From Vectrevirus LI10P3: a stretch of DNA of 44,918 bases. Made by a program: the position numbers and the translations under genes. The notes beneath the pieces were generated by a model. The model made no database searches, was not told where the DNA came from, and saw only the letters and a list, made by a program, of their open reading frames with translations. Where the stretch lies: the sequence record OZ035798.1; one strand, written 5' to 3'. Shown here piece by piece: positions 8,285-29,078 of this stretch. Each line of letters opens with the position of its first letter. Position 1 is the first letter of the stretch.

Positions 8285-8659
8285 ATGGAAACGTGGGTAA
8301 CTGTCCCTGGCTACCCACGGTATCAAGTGTCTACTCATGGATGTGTCAAATCACTCATTGGTAATCACAAGATACTGAAGCCGGGCAAGTCAAAGAGTGG
8401 GTATTTGAACGTAGTTCTTAGTAATGAGGAAGGCAAGAAGACATTCCGTGTGCATCGCTTGGTTGCACTGTGTCATTTGCCTAATCCTCATAATCTTCCC
8501 TTAGTGAACCACAAGGATGAAGACAAGGCACATAATCATGTAGACAATTTAGAGTGGTGTACTGAAGAGTACAATCTCAAGTATTCACGTGACTACGATA
8601 GGTCTTCTCTTAGTGTAACCCAAGGACAGAAGAAGGTATGGCTTCCAGTAGACCTGTAA
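8285..8659 (+). CDS. HNH homing endonuclease (NUMOD4-like N-terminus)
   Basis: AAGGAG RBS; WVTVPGYPRYQVSTHGCV then VNHKDEDKAHNHVDNLEW; paralog of 331..774. Confidence 0.8.
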   Translation: METWVTVPGYPRYQVSTHGCVKSLIGNHKILKPGKSKSGYLNVVLSNEEGKKTFRVHRLVALCHLPNPHNLPLVNHKDEDKAHNHVDNLEWCTEEYNLKYSRDYDRSSLSVTQGQKKVWLPVDL

Positions 8660-8699
8660 CATTCAGGTAACAAAGTCAAAATTTTGATATAGGCGTGTG

Positions 8700-8860
8700 T
8701 CAGCTCTCTCGCCCTCGCCCTCGCCGGATTTCCCCCATATAGGGCCGCGCTGCGGTTGGCTTGGGAATTGGGCTGGGCTGGTCCGTCTTCAACCTGCTGC
8801 CGCAGGAAGCTCGACGGGTGGCCTAGGGCTTGCCGAGGTCTGCTCTTAGTGGCTGCACAA
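8700..8860 (+). other. GC-rich non-coding block, probable genome-terminus / terminal-repeat region
   Basis: Composition differs sharply from the rest of the window; no ORF on either strand; lies between the last late gene and the first early gene. Confidence 0.35.
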
Positions 8861-9039
8861 GGAGAACTCCTAGGAAGCGCTAGGGTACGCCTTAGTATTG
8901 GACAAGGTGATTGCCTTAGTTCAACCGCTTAGGGCTTACACGGGCCGTTTTAGGGCCATTCCTGAGCGTTTGACAGGGTGTGAGGGCGTGGACTATCTGT
9001 TCGTTTCGTTCACTCCGCTTGCGCTACGTTCACTCGCTC

Positions 9040-9180
9040 ACGTGTACCTTAGGTTATTCCTTGATGGATAGCTTAGGTTAGCCTTAGTGGATTACCTTAG
9101 TTAAAGCCTTAGTGCTTCACTTAGTATCCGCTTAGTAGTGTACCTTAGTAAGTCTTAGTGTCTTCTCTTAGTGATTGCAC
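9040..9180 (+). repeat. Array of short direct repeats, CTTAGT(G/A), at least 10 copies
   Basis: Irregularly spaced CCTTAGT/CTTAGTG copies; extra copies at 8845-8925 and 9316-9500; analogous to the heptamer arrays next to T7 terminal repeats. Confidence 0.6.
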
Positions 9181-9369
9181 ATGCAAGCATGTAAGATGCC
9201 ATTAGGTCGCGGTCGGTAGACCGCTAAAGAAGAAGTATAGTAATAAGATGCAGTAGGAGGAACACCAGAAACCTAGCCAACCTAGCCTATCCTAGCTCTG
9301 CATCTATTGCTTTTCCTTAGTCTCACATGTTAGACAACCTATCTTATTCTTAGTGATGATAACTTAGTG

Positions 9370-9398
9370 TTGACAAGATAATCTTAGTGTAATACTAT
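9370..9398 (+). promoter_or_regulatory. Candidate host sigma70 early promoter
   Basis: TTGACA, 17 nt spacer, TACTAT. Confidence 0.4.
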
Positions 9399-9470
9399 GC
9401 ATCACGTAGGCGGTGCTGAGGCACCTAGTAGCCAGCTAGTAAGGCATACGAAGAGACTAGCGCTTACATT

Positions 9471-9483
9471 GCTCTTTAACAAT
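9471..9483 (+). promoter_or_regulatory. boxA-like antitermination element, copy 1
   Basis: GCTCTTTAACAAT, identical to the rrn-type boxA core; ~66 nt downstream of the candidate promoter. Confidence 0.5.
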
Positions 9484-9541
9484 TTGCTTAGTGTAACCTA
9501 TGTATGCCGTGGTCAATTACTTATTGAATGAGGGATTAACT

Positions 9542-9721
9542 ATGACATTAAACAACCGTGAACTATCCGTTCTCTTCACTCTGTTGTGCTACATGATTCG
9601 TAAAAACGAATTGCTTACAGATGACGAGTTAGCCTTGTATCACCGCTTTCTTAACGAAGGTTGGACCGATACAGTTAATCAATACCGTAACATGATAGAT
9701 GAGTTGAGGGAGGGTAAATAA
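9542..9721 (+). CDS. Early hypothetical protein (59 aa)
   Basis: GAGGGA RBS; first ORF after the terminus region. Confidence 0.55.
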   Translation: MTLNNRELSVLFTLLCYMIRKNELLTDDELALYHRFLNEGWTDTVNQYRNMIDELREGK

Positions 9722-9945
9722 TGTATCAGCATGAGGTTTTCTTTGAGTCAGCTAGTGAAGCTATCCGCTTCCTTGAAGATATGCTACAAGCTGGCGTAGG
9801 TGTTGATGTACATCACTTCCTACTAGATTACGACACTGAATATCACCGAGTTACCTTAGTATCTGAGTATGACAACCAAGTCATTACTGAGTACCTAGGC
9901 AGTGAAGATTACGATTATGATGAAGTAATCACGACAAATCTCTAA
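9721..9945 (+). CDS. Early acidic hypothetical protein (74 aa)
   Basis: GAGGGAGGG RBS; very Asp/Glu/Tyr-rich C-terminal half. Confidence 0.6.
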   Translation: MYQHEVFFESASEAIRFLEDMLQAGVGVDVHHFLLDYDTEYHRVTLVSEYDNQVITEYLGSEDYDYDEVITTNL

Positions 9946-9953
9946 ATTAACTG

Positions 9954-9982
9954 TTGACAGCCACGGCATACAAGGCTACATT
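9954..9982 (+). promoter_or_regulatory. Candidate host sigma70 early promoter
   Basis: TTGACA, 17 nt spacer, TACATT. Confidence 0.45.
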
Positions 9983-10015
9983 AAGCATCAAGACGGCGAC
10001 GTCTTTAAACATCCC

Positions 10016-10028
10016 GCTCTTTAACAAT
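10016..10028 (+). promoter_or_regulatory. boxA-like antitermination element, copy 2
   Basis: cGCTCTTTAACAAT, ~27 nt downstream of the predicted start site of the promoter at 9954. Confidence 0.5.
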
Positions 10029-10227
10029 ACGGTTTGTGTCTTGATAGGCTAACTAACTAACTAAGGTAATTATCATGAAAGGTTTAATTTGTGTAGAACG
10101 TATGGTCAATGGTAAACTTGAAATATTACCACTGGAAAACCAATCTAGCTTCAAAGAGTGGTATGGCTGTTTCTCACTTATTTAAGGTAAAGGCTGGCAC
10201 TAGTCAGCCTATCAAGGCGCAAACCAA

Positions 10228-10240
10228 GCTCTTTAACAAT
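10228..10240 (+). promoter_or_regulatory. boxA-like antitermination element, copy 3
   Basis: GCTCTTTAACAAT, ~100 nt upstream of the ocr start codon. Confidence 0.5.
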
Positions 10241-10336
10241 TTGGATGGTAGCTTCTTAGTCTGGATAGGTTAAACCTAGGGGACTCTCTTGAGTCTCCTA
10301 TAATGTAACCTAACTAACTAAATGAGGATTAATAAC

Positions 10337-10690
10337 ATGGCTATGTCTAATATGACTTACTCTCAGGTTTACAACACCGCTCATGCTGCATTAGTTGAAC
10401 GTATCTGGAATGATGATATTGATTGTATCGATAACGCACATGATGCAATCCATGAGGTAGCGGACAGTGCTGTACCAATCTATTATGCTGACATCTTCTC
10501 AGTAATGGCGAGTGAGGGTATTGATCACTTCTTCGAAGACTCCGGCCTGATGCCAGATACTAAGGATGTAACGGTCGTACTACAAGCCCGTATTTATGAA
10601 CAACTCACCATTGATTTATGGGAACGTGTTCAAGATATGATTGTTGCGTACACCACTTACGCTGAGTATTCAGAAGAAGAGGAGGAATAA
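10337..10690 (+). CDS. ocr: Ocr (gp0.3-like) DNA-mimic anti-restriction protein
   Basis: MAMSNMTY...[19 protein letters not shown]...[13 protein letters not shown]...[15 protein letters not shown]...EEEEE closely matches recalled T7 Ocr; 117 aa, highly acidic. Confidence 0.85.
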
Positions 10691-10795
10691 GATGGAAAAG
10701 CTATACAACTTCATCTTTTCAGACGGTGTAACCCTGAAGTGTTCCCTGCGTTTCGCACAAATTCGTGAGGAAGTACTAGGCACTACATACAAACT

Positions 10796-10818
10796 ATTTA
10801 GCTGACACTATAAGAGAA
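10796..10818 (+). promoter_or_regulatory. Phage RNAP promoter variant
   Basis: ATTTAGCTGACACTATAAGAGAAGG. Confidence 0.5.
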
Positions 10819-10880
10819 GGCTTAACAAGGCGTTACTAAGGTAGCGCCTGATTAAACTTTCACTTACTAGGAGTAAGACT

Positions 10881-11108
10881 ATGGATTTAGATAGCATCAT
10901 TATGGCATTTGCTCTTATTGGCTTAAGCTGGTGCTCCTATCACCTTTACCGTGAGTTCTTATTTGATAAAGCTAAACGCAAACTAAGAAAGGAAGGCGGT
11001 AATTACCTTTGTGTAAGAGATGGGCTTGTAGAATACATTGCACCTAACGGCACGGAATGCGCCATTAGCAAAGATGCATTTATAGAAACGTGGCATTACA
11101 TCAAGTAA
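10881..11108 (+). CDS. Early small membrane protein (75 aa)
   Basis: AGGAG RBS; N-terminal hydrophobic segment IIMAFALIGLSWCSY. Confidence 0.55.
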   Translation: MDLDSIIMAFALIGLSWCSYHLYREFLFDKAKRKLRKEGGNYLCVRDGLVEYIAPNGTECAISKDAFIETWHYIK

Positions 11109-11171
11109 CTAGCCTATAGCCTACCTGAGTGGGCTATGTGATATTTACTTACACTATATAAGGTGACTATT

Positions 11172-12095
11172 ATGACTACTGAAAACACCCTCCTGTCTGT
11201 TCGTGAAGCTGCAACCGCTGAGATCAAGCAACACTTAGACAATATCGGCACTTCTTACATCAAAGTTGGCGCTTGTCTTAATGAGTTACGCGGTGACTTT
11301 GAAGGTCAAAAAGACTTTTTGGCTTATGTAGAATCAGAATTTGGAATCAAGAAAGCACAATGCTACAAGCTGATGAGTGTAGCCCGTGTCTTTGAAGGAG
11401 ACGAACGCTTTAAAGGTGTGGCTATGCGTGTAATGCTGGCGCTTGTTCCTTTCGCTGATGAAAATATAATCATGGAGAAGGCCGCAGAACTCGCCGCAGA
11501 GGGCAAGCTGGACACTAACGCCGTAAACGCCCTGATTGATCCTAAGAAAGAGACAAAGGCCGAGACGGTACAATCTAAGGTTGAGTCGGTAAAACCGCAG
11601 GAGAACGCGACTGAGGCCGCAGAAACTATGCAAGGACATGCAACCTTTGAGGATTTCATCTTAGAGAAGGCGAAAGAGGATTTACAAAGTGTGCCGCCAG
11701 TAAGTGAGTCGGGTAACGACGAATCCGCACCGTGGGAAGATGAAAGCAAGCCGGAAGACACAAAGGCAGCGCCACGGGATAACACGGCTAATACTGAGAA
11801 TGCCGCTATTGCTGGTCTGCTGGCACAAATTAAAGCACTGACTGAGCAATTACAGGCAGCTAATGACCGCATTGCCTCCTTAAGCAGCGCACGCGAAAGC
11901 AAGAAAGCAGCCGCGCCTATGCTGCCGCAATTCAAATCTTCCTGCTTCTATGCTCGCTTAGGTTTAAGCGCTGAGGAGGCAACGAAGAAAACAGCAGTTA
12001 ACAAGGCACGCCGCGAACTGGTTAAGCTAGGCTACGGCGAAGGCCATGAAGCATGGCCCTTAATCTCTGAGGCAGTAGAAGAATTAACTAAGTAA
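11172..12095 (+). CDS. Early hypothetical protein with predicted N-terminal helical domain and Ala/Glu/Lys-rich C-terminal region
   Basis: 307 aa from ATG 11172; low-complexity charged middle and C-terminal heptad-like region; occupies the slot of T7 gene 0.7 but shows no kinase motifs. Confidence 0.6.
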   Translation: MTTENTLLSVREAATAEIKQHLDNIGTSYIKVGACLNELRGDFEGQKDFLAYVESEFGIKKAQCYKLMSVARVFEGDERFKGVAMRVMLALVPFADENIIMEKAAELAAEGKLDTNAVNALIDPKKETKAETVQSKVESVKPQENATEAAETMQGHATFEDFILEKAKEDLQSVPPVSESGNDESAPWEDESKPEDTKAAPRDNTANTENAAIAGLLAQIKALTEQLQAANDRIASLSSARESKKAAAPMLPQFKSSCFYARLGLSAEEATKKTAVNKARRELVKLGYGEGHEAWPLISEAVEELTK

Positions 12096-12158
12096 CCCTA
12101 TCGGTGGCATCTTATTAGGTGTCACCTATTAAGGTTTCTTTCACTAGGAGTAAACAAG

Positions 12159-14786
12159 ATGCAAGACCTACACGCTATTCAACTTCAACTTGAAGAAGAA
12201 ATGTTTAACGGCGGTATCCGTCGCTTTGAAGCGGACCAACAACGCCAGATTGCATCCGGTAATGAATCAGACACGGCATGGAATCGCCGCTTATTGTCCG
12301 AGTTAATCGCGCCAATGGCTGAAGGTATTCAGGCTTATAAGGAAGAGTACGAAGGCAAGCGCGGTCGTGCACCACGTGCATTGGCTTTCATTAACTGCGT
12401 AGAAAATGAAGTGGCAGCGTATATCACGATGAAGATCGTAATGGATATGCTTAACACTGATGTAACCTTGCAAGCTATCGCTATGAATGTAGCTGACCGC
12501 ATTGAGGACCAAGTGCGCTTCAGTAAACTAGAAGGCCATGCAGCTAAATATTTTGAGAAGGTCAAGAAGTCACTTAAGGCAAGTAAGACTAAATCATATC
12601 GCCATGCGCACAACGTAGCGGTCGTGGCTGAGAAGTCAGTAGCTGACCGTGACGCTGATTTCTCTCGCTGGGAAGCGTGGCCTAAAGATACCTTGCTACA
12701 AATTGGGATGACCTTGCTTGAAATCTTAGAGAATAGCGTATTCTTCAACGGGCAACCTGTCTTCCTCCGCACCTTGCGCACTAATGGCGGCAAACATGGT
12801 GTTTACTACCTACAGACTAGCGAACACGTGGGTGAATGGATAACTGCATTTAAAGAGCACGTAGCTCAGCTGAGTCCAGCCTATGCGCCTTGCGTGATTC
12901 CTCCTCGTCCGTGGGTGTCACCTTTTAATGGCGGTTTTCACACTGAGAAGGTGGCAAGCCGTATTCGTCTGGTTAAAGGTAACCGCGAGCACGTCCGCAA
13001 GCTGACCAAAAAGCAAATGCCAGCGGTTTACAAGGCTGTTAACGCCTTACAAGCTACTAAGTGGCAGGTTAACAAGGAAGTATTGCAGGTAGTAGAAGAT
13101 GTTATTCGTCTAGACCTCGGTTATGGTGTACCTTCCTTTAAGCCGCTCATTGACCGCGAGAACAAACCAGCTAACCCTGTTCCTCTTGAGTTCCAGCACC
13201 TGCGAGGCCGTGAATTGAAAGAGATGCTAACACCGGAGCAATGGCAGGCCTTCATCAACTGGAAGGGTGAATGTACTAAGCTGTATACCGCTGAGACTAA
13301 GCGCGGCAGCAAGTCGGCGGCGACCGTCCGCATGGTAGGACAGGCCCGTAAATACAGCCAGTTTGACGCTATTTATTTTGTATATGCACTGGACAGCCGT
13401 TCACGCGTTTATGCGCAATCTAGCACGCTCTCGCCGCAATCAAACGACTTAGGCAAGGCATTGCTCCGTTTTACCGAAGGGCAGCGTCTTGATAGCGCTG
13501 AGGCGCTTAAGTGGTTTTTGGTGAACGGGGCGAATAACTGGGGTTGGGATAAGAAAACTTTTGACGTGCGCACCTCTAACGTGCTGGATGGCGAATTTCA
13601 AGACATGTGCCGCGACATTGCAGCCGATCCGCTGACCTTCACTCAATGGGTAAATGCCGACTCCCCTTACGGCTTCCTTGCATGGTGCTTTGAATATGCG
13701 CGTTATCTGGATGCACTGGATGAAGGCACGCAAGACCAATTCATGACGCATCTACCCGTCCATCAAGACGGTAGTTGCTCTGGTATCCAGCACTATAGCG
13801 CGATGTTACGCGATGAAGTAGGTGCGAAAGCAGTAAACCTTAAGCCCTCTGACTCTCCTCAAGATATTTATGGTGCCGTTGCGCAGGTAGTAATTCAGAA
13901 GAACTATGCATACATGAATGCAGAGGATGCGGAAACCTTCACTTCTGGCAGCGTGACTTTAACAGGTGCGGAGCTGCGTAGTATGGCTAGTGCGTGGGAT
14001 ATGATAGGAATCACTCGCGGCCTGACCAAAAAGCCCGTAATGACACTACCTTATGGCAGCACACGTCTAACCTGCCGTGAGTCAGTGATTGATTATATCG
14101 TTGATTTAGAAGAAAAAGAGGCCCAACGGGCTATTGCGGAAGGGCGTACCGCCAATCCTGTACACCCTTTTGATAATGACCGTAAGGACAGCCTGACACC
14201 TAGCGCAGCTTATAACTATATGACAGCTTTAATCTGGCCTTCTATTTCGGAAGTGGTTAAAGCTCCTATAGTGGCAATGAAAATGATTCGTCAGCTTGCA
14301 CGTTTCGCAGCTAAAAGGAATGAAGGCTTAGAGTACACCTTGCCTACTGGCTTCATCTTGCAACAAAAGATAATGGCGACAGATATGCTCCGCGTATCTA
14401 CTTGCTTGATGGGAGAAATCAAGATGAGTCTACAGATTGAAACGGACGTAGTGGATGAAACGGCTATGATGGGCGCTGCTGCCCCTAACTTTGTGCACGG
14501 TCATGATGCCAGTCACCTTATCTTAACGGTCTGCGACCTTGTTGATAAAGGGATTACATCTATCGCAGTAATTCATGATTCTTTTGGCACTCATGCAGGT
14601 CGCACCGCAGACCTACGTGATAGTCTAAGGGCAGAAATGGTGAAGATGTATCAAGGCCGTAACGCTCTGCAAAGCCTGTTAGATGAGCATGAAGAACGCT
14701 GGTTAGTAGACACCGGAATCCAAGTGCCAGAGCAAGGAGAGTTTGACCTTAACGAAATCTTAGTATCTGACTATTGCTTCGCATAA
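12159..14786 (+). CDS. Single-subunit DNA-dependent RNA polymerase (T7/SP6 gene 1-like)
   Basis: 875 aa; [52 protein letters not shown] and HDSFGTHAG motifs; C-terminal ...CFA. Confidence 0.95.
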
Positions 14787-22043: not shown

Positions 22044-22343
22044 ATGATGGAAGAAGTAATTCAAGCTAAACATGTAGGTATCATTTTTCGTGATCTAGAG
22101 CAGCGTAAAGTTGCAGGTCACACTCGTCTGGCTAAAGAGGAAGACACCGCAATCACTACGGTAGAACAAGCAGATGCCTATCGTGGTCCGGAGTTCACTC
22201 AAGGTGAAACTTGTCACCAATTGAGCCTATCACTTTGTGACACTATGGCTATTGTAAATGTGCAAGAAGTCGAAGAGGGTGAGTGTGTCAGTTACATCTA
22301 CCCTTTAGATACTATTGCACGCATTAAGGTAATCCATAAGTAA
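22044..22343 (+). CDS. Hypothetical protein (99 aa)
   Basis: AAGGA RBS; compact ORF ending at the next promoter. Confidence 0.55.
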   Translation: MMEEVIQAKHVGIIFRDLEQRKVAGHTRLAKEEDTAITTVEQADAYRGPEFTQGETCHQLSLSLCDTMAIVNVQEVEEGECVSYIYPLDTIARIKVIHK

Positions 22344-23642: not shown

Positions 23643-24023
23643 ATGTTCAAGATTGAAACTATCGTAAACCGTGTTGTTAAAGGTGCTGCTCTGGTATCCG
23701 TTGAGTCTTTCATTATCGTCGATGAAGCTGATCAACTGGTAGCTGGTACTAAGGCTTACGATACCCGTGAAGAAGCTCAGGCTAAGATTGACAGCATGGG
23801 TAACTTCGCTGCTGGTCTGGAGTTCGCTCGCGCTTGCTTCCCTGAGCAGGCTGACAAAGCTCAGATTGGTAAGGCTAATATCGTAGCTGAATATCTGGAT
23901 TGGATTGCTGCTGGTAAGCCGGTGAAAGAAGTTAAGTCTGCTGAAGAAGCTGAATCTCAGGCAGTAGAAGAAGAAGTAGCTGCACCGGTAGATGCTCCGG
24001 TAAGCGAAGAGGAAGAGTTTTAA
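23643..24023 (+). CDS. Hypothetical protein (126 aa) with acidic C-terminal tail ending in Phe
   Basis: AAGGAGAA RBS; ends ...PVSEEEEF; codon usage looks like a highly expressed gene. Confidence 0.65.
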   Translation: MFKIETIVNRVVKGAALVSVESFIIVDEADQLVAGTKAYDTREEAQAKIDSMGNFAAGLEFARACFPEQADKAQIGKANIVAEYLDWIAAGKPVKEVKSAEEAESQAVEEEVAAPVDAPVSEEEEF

Positions 24024-28452: not shown

Positions 28453-28927
28453 TCCAAATTATCGAAAACCACCTCGTACACCGCCAAGACCACTTGCCTA
28501 CTGTCCTTTTACTGGAAAGCTTTTCCGTAAGTTCAAAGATGGCTGGAGAGAAACAGGACTTAGCAGAAAGAGTGATGGATATTTACAGTGTAAAGTCGAT
28601 GGTAAGACTGTAAGTGTTCATGTTTTAGCAATGAATATGATGGGTTATGACACTACCGGCTTTACAGTAGATCACATAAATCATATACGCTGGGATAATA
28701 GGTTTATTAATCTACGTCTATTATCTCATAAAGATAATTGTTTAAATAGAGAGGCGATACATATAAGTAAGCTGCCGAGTGGTAACTACAGAGCGCGATG
28801 TGGAAATGTTCATCTTGGCGTATTTGAGGATAAGTTACTTGCTCGTGGTGCTATCCTATGGTATCGCCATAGGAGATTTAATAATGTTAAATTCAATGAA
28901 GGCAACGCGTGCCGTAGAAGTAGCTGA
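28442..28927 (+). CDS. HNH endonuclease
   Basis: VDHINHIRWDNRFINLRLLSHKDN motif; overlaps the ligase stop. Confidence 0.75.
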   Translation: MSSNPNYRKPPRTPPRPLAYCPFTGKLFRKFKDGWRETGLSRKSDGYLQCKVDGKTVSVHVLAMNMMGYDTTGFTVDHINHIRWDNRFINLRLLSHKDNCLNREAIHISKLPSGNYRARCGNVHLGVFEDKLLARGAILWYRHRRFNNVKFNEGNACRRSS

Positions 28928-29078
28928 AGCTATATTTGAAACTCTATCCTGTGGCATGGAAGTGCCATATACTTTACTGGCTGATGCAGAAGCGCTTGGT
29001 CTTTCTGTAGAAGCTATCCAAGAGAAGGTTGACGAATTATATGGTACAGACGAAGAAGAAACCGACGATTTCATTTGA
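28884..29078 (+). CDS. Hypothetical small acidic protein (64 aa)
   Basis: GGAG RBS; ends ...TDEEETDDFI; start uncertain. Confidence 0.3.
   Translation: MLNSMKATRAVEVAEAIFETLSCGMEVPYTLLADAEALGLSVEAIQEKVDELYGTDEEETDDFI

What the first reader, a model, noticed from the sequence alone, without database searches (positions are those of the whole stretch)
9542..10690. Ocr-centred anti-defence cluster with uncharacterised acidic and small neighbours
The ORF at 10337-10690 is a clear Ocr homolog (DNA mimic that blocks type I restriction-modification and BREX). Directly upstream are a 59 aa protein and a 74 aa highly acidic protein (9721-9945, ending DYDTEYHRVTLVSEYDNQVITEYLGSEDYDYDEVITTNL) with no recognisable motif, plus possible micro-ORFs at 10075-10185 and 10693-10806. 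The acidic protein sits in the same leader and has charge composition suggestive of another nucleic-acid mimic, so it is a candidate undescribed anti-defence factor.
Basis: partly seen in the sequence, partly recalled or inferred. Interest (0 to 1): 0.65.

Follow-up and report, generated by a model that had tools for sequence, protein, structure and literature searches.

The report
K1-5-like phage early genes around Ocr
This is the first-entering "early" gene block of a K1-5/K1E-like E. coli podophage: it holds a genuine Ocr anti-restriction gene flanked by real, conserved but functionally unstudied small genes, and nothing beyond charge and position shows that the acidic 74-aa neighbour is a DNA mimic.

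Summary
Every ORF named is present at the stated coordinates. The 10337-10690 ORF is a true Ocr (Pfam 146.6 bits; 66% identical to T7 Ocr, no gaps). The window is a circularly permuted Vectrevirus genome, 99.7% identical to a deposited phage. The region equals K1-5 genes 1-6.

The 74-aa acidic protein is K1-5 gene 2 / SP6 gp4 (phrog_6403, unknown function).
- It is a real gene (pN/pS 0.23).
- It is the most acidic ORF in the genome (net -15).
- It lies about 1 kb from the leading DNA end.
- It has a confident ferredoxin-like beta-alpha-beta-beta-alpha-beta model (pLDDT 93).
- That fold is generic (PII/CutA/ACT-like) and matches no known DNA mimic or anti-defence protein.
- Its acidic positions are mostly not conserved across the family.

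The DNA-mimic reading therefore stays a guess. A host-protein-binding early inhibitor is my best inference.

Both "micro-ORFs" are real genes. The unannotated 36-aa ORF at 10075-10185 belongs to a phage-only micro-protein family absent from Pfam and PHROGs. In three lineages it sits directly upstream of three different anti-restriction genes (Ocr, SAM lyase, ArdA). That is the most interesting lead here.

The parts
9370..9398 (+). sigma-70-like early promoter (TTGACA-17-TACTAT) ahead of genes 1-2
   Evidence: 10 of 12 consensus matches. Consensus match only; the number of such sites in the region is no higher than in shuffles.
9471..9482 (+). boxA-like element 1 (GCTCTTTAACAA)
   Evidence: three exact copies, all in the early leader, against 0.43 expected matches (exact or one mismatch). 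Present in nearly all relatives. The identification with rrn/T7 boxA rests on my own knowledge.
9542..9721 (+). gene 1 (59 aa) = K1-5/K1E gene 1, SP6 gp3; phrog_9275, function unknown
   Evidence: pN/pS is 0.12-0.17.
9721..9945 (+). gene 2 (74 aa, net charge -15) = K1-5/K1E gene 2, SP6 gp4; phrog_6403; predicted ferredoxin-like fold; function unknown
9954..9982 (+). second sigma-70-like promoter (TTGACA-17-TACATT); TTGACA is found at this position in all relatives compared
10016..10027 (+). boxA-like element 2
10075..10185 (+). 36-aa micro-gene ('o36'), a member of a phage-only micro-protein family with the motif ICVxR..G...Q..YxEWxGCF; unannotated in most relatives
10228..10239 (+). boxA-like element 3, directly ahead of the Ocr leader hairpin
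10256..10321 (+). long irregular RNA hairpin in the Ocr leader, in the position of the T7 R0.3 RNase III site
   Evidence: z = -3.39; 1 of 200 shuffles folds as well. Two compensatory pair changes in relative L006. The RNase III assignment is an inference by analogy.
10337..10690 (+). Ocr (gene 3), T7-type allele, 117 aa, net charge -21
10693..10806 (+). gene 4 (37 aa), phrog_11746, function unknown
   Evidence: pN/pS is 0.03.
10881..11108 (+). gene 5 (75 aa, hydrophobic N-terminal segment), phrog_21597; present in only some relatives
11163..12095 (+). gene 6 (310 aa), phrog_4571, function unknown; last early gene before the RNA polymerase gene
12159..14786 (+). single-subunit phage RNA polymerase (gene 7); marks the end of the host-transcribed early block

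Best explanation
The segment is the class-I early block, transcribed by the host RNA polymerase, of a K1-5/K1E-like Vectrevirus (Autographiviridae, Molineuxvirinae). The physical left end of the genome maps to about window position 8707. Gene 1 therefore starts 835 nt, gene 2 1014 nt and Ocr 1630 nt from the leading end.

Shown:
- Ocr is a bona fide T7-type DNA-mimic anti-restriction protein.
- Genes 1, 2 and 4 and the 36-aa ORF are real protein-coding genes under purifying selection.
- Gene 2 is a subfamily-wide core early gene. Its product is a compact, very acidic domain with a confident ferredoxin-like model (beta-alpha-beta-beta-alpha-beta).
- The C-terminal half of that protein (beta3, alpha2, the EDYDYDE loop, beta4) is almost invariant within the genus.

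Inferred:
- Gene 2 protein is made within the first minutes of infection.
- It acts stoichiometrically by binding a host macromolecule through that conserved acidic, tyrosine-rich surface.
- It is probably a homo-oligomer. Conserved hydrophobic residues fall on both faces of the sheet, as in PII/CutA/ACT-type proteins.
- Because the gene is fixed in phages of Escherichia, Salmonella, Proteus and Klebsiella, the target is more likely a conserved host protein than a sporadic defence system. I favour a nucleic-acid-handling or other basic-surfaced protein.

An anti-defence role remains possible but is not shown.

The exchangeable part of the locus is the stretch from gene 2 to gene 4. It holds cassettes of small ORFs, each behind its own boxA, followed by an anti-restriction gene that comes in two Ocr alleles or is replaced outright.
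For: Identity of the locus:
- 99.7% DNA identity to Vectrevirus LI10P3.
- Gene-for-gene match to K1-5 genes 1-7 and to K1E.
- Left end mapped from K1E and Mt1B1_P10.
- Ocr confirmed.

Gene 2 is coding:
- pN/pS is 0.23 overall and 0.078 for codons 41-74. Variable sites by codon position are 27/16/52.

Gene 2 family:
- 46 clusters at 72% identity or more, all 74 aa and, where the contig is long enough to judge, on 42-46 kb contigs.
- Remote members are SP6 gp4, Kenya-K30, UAB_Phi78, Proteus PM116/BigMira, P0166 and P0171. All are phrog_6403.
- Where a long contig shows the context, the gene lies at the head of the early block, upstream of Ocr and the RNA polymerase gene.
- Present in 60 phage records.

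Fold:
- AF2 with the diverse alignment gives pLDDT 93.3 and pTM 0.80, with all five models at 88.8 or above.
- The first run gave the same topology.

Acidity:
- Most acidic of 64 ORFs.
- Every family member tallied is net negative, from -6 to -15.

Variable slot and Ocr replacement.
Against: - No experiment or paper on any member was found.
- Oligomerisation and the binding surface are inferred from sequence patterns.
- Early timing is inferred from position and promoter-like sites. The number of such sites is no higher than in shuffled sequence.
- Ocr itself is also widely conserved, so 'core gene' does not exclude an anti-defence role.
- The lower synonymous divergence of the C-terminal half (pS 0.25 against 0.51) suggests that part of its conservation reflects recombination flanks of the cassette slot.
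Confidence: 0.5

Rival explanations
1. Gene 2 protein is a second DNA or nucleic-acid mimic. It blocks a DNA-targeting defence (R-M, BREX, RecBCD-dependent or similar) alongside Ocr.
For: - Net charge is -15 over 74 aa (23% D+E). It is the most acidic ORF in the genome and more acidic per residue than Ocr.
- It is encoded ahead of Ocr on the first kilobase to enter the cell.
- All family members tallied are net negative.
- The N-terminal half shows two allele classes and a higher pN/pS of 0.29.
- Known mimics have many different folds (my own knowledge), so a new fold is no bar.
Against: - No structural match to any known mimic or anti-defence protein in PDB or BFVD.
- Acidic positions are not conserved across the family, except the [DE][DE] pair before beta4.
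- SP6 and Proteus members carry only -7.
- The gene is never swapped or lost among the 13 relatives whose gene 2-to-gene 4 stretch was compared, whereas Ocr and the cassettes beside it are.
- Composition alone is weak evidence. Three other unknown-function ORFs in this genome are also strongly acidic.
Confidence: 0.17
2. Gene 2 protein serves the phage's own early programme. It might modulate host RNA polymerase, Nus-factor antitermination at the three boxA sites, or transcription-coupled genome entry.
For: - Three exact boxA-like elements punctuate the early leader.
- Gene 2 is the first conserved product made.
Against: - uS10 is one of hundreds of equally good ferredoxin-like matches.
- A protein with net charge -15 and only two basic residues is unsuited to bind boxA RNA.
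- There is no sequence similarity to any Nus factor or RNA polymerase-binding protein.
Confidence: 0.1
3. Gene 2 protein is a PII/ACT-like small-molecule binder, for example a sponge for an immune signalling nucleotide.
For: The best structural neighbours are PII/GlnK, SbtB, CutA and ACT domains, which bind nucleotides or metabolites at oligomer interfaces.
Against: - Foldseek E-values are only about 1e-3 and TM-scores about 0.66.
- There is no T-loop-length insertion.
- Only two basic residues are present (R16, R43), and neither is conserved across the family.
- No sequence relationship to these families was found.
Confidence: 0.05
4. The small ORFs are chance ORFs or decaying remnants with no function.
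For: They are short. Several are unannotated in reference genomes.
Against: - Purifying selection acts on genes 1, 2, 4 and 5.
- The 36-aa ORF is conserved at protein level across phage subfamilies, with 11 synonymous and 9 non-synonymous codon changes and a third-position bias.
- It has 14 aligned divergent members that share eight invariant residues.
Confidence: 0.03

Closest known systems
Phage T7 gene 0.3 protein Ocr and its leader (boxA plus the R0.3 RNase III site)
   Same: The window ORF at 10337-10690 is 117 aa, collinear with T7 Ocr and 66% identical to it. It keeps 23 of 34 acidic positions. It is preceded by a boxA-like element and a long hairpin, as I recall for T7.
   Different: In T7, Ocr is the first gene after promoters A1-A3. 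Here two conserved genes (1 and 2), a second promoter and a 36-aa gene come before it. The window protein is less acidic (25 D+E against 34).
K1-5 genes 1-6 / K1E genes 1-6 / SP6 gp3-gp7 (early region of Molineuxvirinae)
   Same: The match is gene for gene: gene 1, gene 2, Ocr (gene 3), gene 4, gene 5, gene 6, then the RNA polymerase gene.
   Different: - The window carries the T7-type Ocr allele, whereas K1-5 and K1E carry a 61%-identical allele.
- The slot between gene 2 and Ocr holds the o36 cassette. K1E has genes 2.5 and 2.8 there instead.
Small acidic phage inhibitors that mimic nucleic acid (Ocr, ArdA, T7 gp5.9, Arn, Ugi)
   Same: Gene 2 protein shares small size, strong net negative charge and expression from a phage genome.
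   Different: It has no sequence or fold similarity to any of them. A conserved array of carboxylates could not be shown.
PII / CutA / ACT-type ferredoxin-like domains
   Different: There is no sequence homology, no T-loop and no conserved ligand-binding basic residues. The resemblance is at fold level only.

Membership tests
Ocr (Pfam PF08684, T7 gp0.3) | Profile match above the curated threshold over the whole domain | tested here: met
   146.6 bits against a cut-off of 25, profile positions 1-100 of 101. PHROG 2568 E=7.9e-48.
Ocr (Pfam PF08684, T7 gp0.3) | Collinear similarity to the structurally solved T7 protein | tested here: met
   1S7Z E=3.4e-41 over residues 1-117 of both proteins. 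77/117 identical with no gaps.
Ocr (Pfam PF08684, T7 gp0.3) | Strongly acidic surface composition | tested here: met
   25 D+E against 4 K+R. 23 of 34 T7 acidic positions are retained.
Ocr (Pfam PF08684, T7 gp0.3) | Inhibition of type I R-M or BREX by binding the methyltransferase core | not testable with these tools
   Needs plaque assays or binding assays.
DNA-mimic proteins (claim for gene 2) | High acidic content and low pI | tested here: met
   23% D+E, net -15, computed pI 4.05. Most acidic of 64 ORFs.
DNA-mimic proteins (claim for gene 2) | Fold or sequence relationship to a known mimic | tested here: not met
DNA-mimic proteins (claim for gene 2) | Conserved array of surface carboxylates spaced like DNA phosphates | tested here: inconclusive
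   Only the [DE][DE] pair before beta4 is conserved family-wide.
DNA-mimic proteins (claim for gene 2) | Binding to a DNA-binding protein in competition with DNA | not testable with these tools
   Needs co-folding or biochemistry.
phrog_6403 / K1-5 gp2 / SP6 gp4 family | Full-length profile match | tested here: met
   E=2.5e-28, residues 1-74. SP6 gp4, BigMira_03/04, P0166 and P0171 hit the same PHROG.
phrog_6403 / K1-5 gp2 / SP6 gp4 family | Conserved position at the head of the early block, upstream of Ocr and the RNA polymerase gene | tested here: met
PII/CutA/ACT ferredoxin-like superfolds | beta-alpha-beta-beta-alpha-beta topology | tested here: met
   E2-8, H11-23, E28-34, E40-48, H52-61, E68-73, at pLDDT 93.3.
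PII/CutA/ACT ferredoxin-like superfolds | Sequence homology or ligand-binding residues of those families | tested here: not met
   No Pfam hit. Basic residues are scarce and not conserved.
Pentatricopeptide repeat proteins | Tandem 35-residue helix-turn-helix repeats | tested here: not met
   The hits cover only profile positions about 11-35. They score by summing over many repeats of the target, and no single stretch passes. Gene 2 has one such segment, which the model places as alpha1 followed by beta2.

The most novel reading that the evidence does not exclude
One or both of the unstudied small proteins is a new counter-defence factor.

(a) The phrog_6403 protein (gene 2) may be a new ferredoxin-fold acidic inhibitor. 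It would be made before Ocr to neutralise a host nuclease or sensor that acts on the entering DNA end.

(b) The 36-aa 'o36' micro-protein belongs to a family absent from Pfam and PHROGs and from 185,579 bacterial species genomes. It may be a portable partner or second line of anti-restriction genes. It lies directly upstream of Ocr, of SAM lyase and of ArdA in three different phage lineages.
Probability: 0.2. Interest if true: 0.65.

Novelty: already known. Interest (0 to 1): 0.33.

Why it matters
As it stands, the locus is the known early region of K1-5/SP6-type phages with a known Ocr, so it changes little.

Its value is as a short, well-defined list of candidates.
- A subfamily-wide first-expressed protein with a confident structure model and no known function.
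- A cassette hotspot next to the anti-restriction gene.
- An overlooked 36-aa gene family that travels with three unrelated anti-restriction genes.

K1-5-like phages are used against K1-capsulated and uropathogenic E. coli. Knowing what their first proteins do would help predict host range on strains with different defence repertoires.

Tried and rejected
1. PPR similarity. The gene 2 profile hit designer and plant PPR proteins with seemingly strong E-values. I rejected this. Only a stretch of about 22 residues (helix then turn) matches, the score is summed over repeats, and no single stretch passes.
3. PII-like nucleotide sponge. Kept only as a low-probability rival, because there are no conserved basic residues.
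4. Domain-fusion clue. P0169 (190 aa) carries a gene-2-like C-terminal domain. Its N-terminal 117 residues hit no PHROG, and an internal Met starts the homologous part. It is probably two genes read as one.
5. Rfam scan of 8600-12300 found nothing credible.
6. Literature. Searches for the PHROG number, the accession numbers and for Vectrevirus, Molineuxvirinae, K1-5 or SP6 early genes found no functional study.
8. The first AF2 run, with only close homologues, was weak (one model at 77.6, the others at 50-56). Confidence came only after SP6-type and Proteus-type members were added.
9. The neighbours of o36 homologues in aquatic phage contigs are mostly PHROGs of unknown function. The association with anti-restriction genes rests on 3 of about 12 lineages and may simply reflect an early-region location.
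Full report
**What the window is.**
- The 1.9 kb around the finding is 99.7% identical to Vectrevirus LI10P3. It is 92-98% identical to many Escherichia phages of the genus Vectrevirus (Autographiviridae, Molineuxvirinae).
- It corresponds gene for gene to K1-5 genes 1-7 and to K1E.
- Position 1 of the K1E and Mt1B1_P10 records, the latter with an annotated terminal repeat, aligns to window 8707-8708. The window is therefore a circularly permuted genome whose physical left end lies near 8707.
- Gene 1 starts 835 nt, gene 2 1014 nt and Ocr 1630 nt from that end.
- From my own knowledge: in T7-type phages the left end enters first and is transcribed by the host polymerase. That this holds for K1-5-like phages is an assumption.

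**Observation check.** All ORFs exist as described.
- Ocr at 10337-10690 matches Pfam PF08684 at 146.6 bits (cut-off 25) and PHROG 2568.
- It aligns without gaps to T7 Ocr 1S7Z, with E=3.4e-41 and 77/117 identical.
- The 74-aa ORF at 9721-9945 has 17 acidic and 2 basic residues. It is the most acidic of 64 ATG ORFs of at least 50 aa on the + strand, with Ocr second.
- The 59-aa ORF is K1E gp1 / SP6 gp3.
- The 9542 start is supported by its Shine-Dalgarno sequence. In addition, the upstream in-frame stretch is reused in front of a different gene in PDP21P6.

**Gene 2 is a real, constrained gene.**
- Across 14 distinct sequences, pN/pS is 0.23. It is 0.29 for codons 1-40 and 0.078 for codons 41-74.
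- Variable sites by codon position are 27/16/52.
- Within the genus, residues 41-74 (YHRVTLVSEYDNQVITEYLGSEDYDYDEVITTNL) are almost invariant. Helix 1 and strand 2 come in two allele classes.
- Synonymous divergence is also lower in the C-terminal half (0.25 against 0.51). Part of that conservation may therefore reflect its role as a recombination flank of the neighbouring cassette slot. This is an inference.

**Gene 2 family and distribution.**
- The word-indexed search found only 46 clusters, all at 72% identity or more and all 74 aa. Those on contigs long enough to judge lie on 42-46 kb contigs.
- The exhaustive HMM search of 1.84 billion representatives added three credible remote members: P0166, P0171 and P0169.
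- P0171 bridges to SP6 gp4 and to Proteus phages.
- A profile search then recovered SP6, Kenya-K30, UAB_Phi78, Proteus PM116 and others.
- The six remote members tested (SP6 gp4, BigMira_03 and BigMira_04, P0166, P0171) all fall in phrog_6403, 'unknown function'.
- In SP6, BigMira and the metagenomic contig L019, the gene sits at the head of the early block, upstream of an Ocr homologue and the RNA polymerase gene.
- BigMira has two tandem paralogues.
- The gene is found in 60 phage records. By comparison, 77 records share the RNA polymerase gene at megablast level.
- Gene 1 is missing in L019. Other ORFs can be inserted between genes 1 and 2 (K1E 1.5, and a 49-aa ORF in PDP21P6). Gene 2 therefore does not depend on gene 1.

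**Gene 2 structure.**
- With close homologues only, AF2 was weak.
- With the diverse alignment A4, all five models scored 88.8-93.3 pLDDT, with pTM 0.80. The elements are E2-8, H11-23, E28-34, E40-48, H52-61 and E68-73. This is a ferredoxin-like beta-alpha-beta-beta-alpha-beta domain.
- Foldseek against the PDB gave no hit with E of 1e-3 or better. The best were PII/GlnK, ACT, NikR-C, S6 and IsdG.
- BFVD returned uncharacterised proteins of CrRp3, PP1 and PM116, which I take to be the same family by size and source phage. It also returned proteins of CC2 and LUZ7.
- No known DNA mimic or anti-defence protein appears among the listed hits.

**Testing the mimic idea.**
- The nine representative members tallied are all net negative, from -6 to -15. 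The extreme value is specific to Vectrevirus.
- In the broad alignment, the conserved positions are mostly hydrophobic strand residues plus the motif [YF][DE][DE]VIT.
- By my reading of the strand pattern, conserved hydrophobic residues fall on both faces of the sheet (V6/F7, V44-L46 against Y41/T45, V69/I70). This suggests the open face is buried in an oligomer or a partner. It is an inference, not a computation.
- Composition and position therefore fit a mimic, but nothing specific supports one.

**Regulatory anatomy.**
- Two sigma-70-like sites (9370, 9954) match the consensus at 10 of 12 positions. The count of such sites is not above shuffles.
- TTGACA at the second site is present in all 13 relatives compared.
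- Three exact copies of GCTCTTTAACAA lie at 9471, 10016 and 10228. The pattern (one mismatch allowed) has four matches in the window against 0.43 expected, and no shuffle reached four.
- These copies recur in relatives, one per cassette. From my own knowledge, this is the rrn-type boxA that T7 also carries ahead of gene 0.3.
- The Ocr leader folds into a long hairpin at 10256-10321, with z = -3.39. Relative L006 has two compensatory pair changes in it. This is analogous to the T7 R0.3 RNase III site, by inference.

**The variable part of the locus.** The stretch from the stop of gene 2 to the start of gene 4 ranges from 454 to 1276 nt in the 13 relatives compared.
- Ahead of the anti-restriction gene it holds alternative small ORFs. 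These are o36, K1E 2.5 (70 aa, weak HTH hint), K1E 2.8 (54 aa), a 55-aa ORF and a 37-aa ORF.
- Some relatives (P433.1, NIC06P3) have no extra ORF there.
- Ocr occurs as a T7-type allele and a K1-5-type allele. The latter is about 61% identical to the window protein over residues 18-94.
- In PDP21P6, Ocr is replaced by an 89-aa phrog_3199 protein.
- Gene 2 alleles and Ocr alleles assort independently.
- Genes 1, 2, 4 and 6 are the fixed frame. The arms-race signature lies between genes 2 and 4, not in gene 2.

**The micro-ORFs.**
- Gene 4 (10693-10806) is under very strong purifying selection, with pN/pS 0.03.
- The 36-aa ORF at 10075-10185 has an AAGG Shine-Dalgarno sequence 7 nt upstream.
- Among six close relatives, the only two substitutions inside it are synonymous third-position changes.
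- It is 100% identical in 34 phage records but annotated in only some of them.
- It is 75% identical in Enterobacter phage EV136_1 (Kayfunavirus). There, 11 codon differences are synonymous and 9 are not, and differences by codon position are 9/6/17.
- It is 49% identical in Ralstonia phage P-PSG-11.
- IMG/VR and JGI metagenome scans added about 35 loci.
- No relative was found in one genome each of 185,579 bacterial and archaeal species.
- Fourteen aligned members share the invariant residues V7, R9, G13, E28, W29, G31, C32 and F33.
- The family is in neither Pfam nor PHROGs.
- Its immediate downstream neighbour is Ocr here, a SAM lyase in EV136_1 and L031 (PF23780, E=9e-40), and ArdA in L041 (PF07275, E=7e-29).
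- In other lineages the neighbours are PF17338 GP88-like proteins or PHROGs of unknown function.
- Three of roughly twelve lineages lying next to three unrelated anti-restriction genes is suggestive. It could equally reflect a shared early-region location.

**Mechanism and rivals.** I put about 0.5 on the overall account.
- In that account the locus is the known early block, and gene 2 protein is an early, probably oligomeric, stoichiometric binder of a conserved host protein.
- It would bind through its invariant acidic, tyrosine-rich C-terminal surface.

A role in the phage's own early transcription gets about 0.1. A PII-like ligand sponge gets about 0.05. 'Not functional' gets about 0.03.

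**Comparison and novelty.**
- The Ocr gene is a member of a well-known family.
- The gene order matches the annotated K1-5, K1E and SP6 genome records.
- The acidic protein belongs to a catalogued family of unknown function. I found no functional study of it.
- Recent work stresses that the first-injected region of Autographiviridae is variable and rich in anti-defence genes (PMC12455610). It also reports that DNA mimics act broadly (bioRxiv 10.1101/2025.06.06.658234). The candidates here are reasonable but unproven.
- I rate the feature as already known, with modest interest. The o36 family is the one observation that I did not find in the family libraries or papers searched.

**Limits.**
- No multimer prediction was possible.
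- I had no access to model coordinates.
- There are no expression data.
- All functional statements about genes 1, 2, 4 and o36 are inferences.

Noticed in passing
window 10075-10185; L026 851-958; L031 2501-2614; L041 2402-2617: The unannotated 36-aa ORF belongs to a phage-only micro-protein family (ICVxR..G...Q..YxEWxGCF) that is absent from Pfam and PHROGs. It lies directly upstream of three unrelated anti-restriction genes in three lineages: Ocr, SAM lyase and ArdA.
   Followed up: yes
window 9471-9482, 10016-10027, 10228-10239: There are three exact copies of the rrn/T7-type boxA sequence GCTCTTTAACAA, one ahead of each early translation unit. Relatives carry one per inserted cassette. 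Multiple boxA elements within one phage early leader seem unusual.
   Followed up: partly
window 10256-10321: A long irregular hairpin lies between boxA 3 and the Ocr ribosome-binding site (z -3.39). One relative has two compensatory pair changes in it. It is probably an RNase III processing site like T7 R0.3.
   Followed up: partly
window 9946-10336 and the matching stretch in L003-L017: The interval between gene 2 and Ocr is a cassette hotspot. At least five alternative small ORFs (36-70 aa) occupy it in different Vectrevirus genomes. The o36 version of this interval is 99% identical in DNA among the six genomes aligned, although their gene 2 sequences differ more. That suggests recent spread by recombination.
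   Followed up: partly
L014 2893-3162 (Vectrevirus PDP21P6): In this relative, Ocr is replaced at the same position by an 89-aa protein of phrog_3199 (unknown function). This protein is a candidate alternative anti-restriction gene.
   Followed up: partly
L025 1047-1259 and 1259-1468 (Proteus phage BigMira-UFV01): Two tandem paralogues of the gene 2 family (both phrog_6403) sit at the head of the early region.
   Followed up: partly
window 8285-8659: An HNH endonuclease gene (phrog_59, E=1.5e-39) lies immediately before the physical genome end at about 8707. It is the last gene of the right end.
   Followed up: partly
window 11163-12095: Gene 6 (310 aa, phrog_4571, unknown function) occupies the place of T7 gene 0.7, just before the RNA polymerase gene. 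Relatives annotate it inconsistently: 'endolysin' in P433.1 and 'TonB periplasmic protein' in BigMira. These labels look like mis-annotations.
   Followed up: no
window 10050-10066 and 10310-10322: A repeated TAACTAACTAA motif, which places stop codons in all three frames, precedes the ribosome-binding sites of both o36 and Ocr.
   Followed up: no
window 28806-29078, 23643-24023, 22044-22343: Three further strongly acidic ORFs (net -13, -14 and -7) belong to PHROGs of unknown function. High acidity is therefore not unique to the early region in this genome.
   Followed up: partly
L023 422-994 (protein P0169): A 190-aa predicted protein carries a gene-2-like domain at its C-terminus, after an unrelated 117-residue N-terminal part with no PHROG hit. 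An internal Met at the junction suggests two genes merged by gene calling rather than a true fusion.
   Followed up: partly
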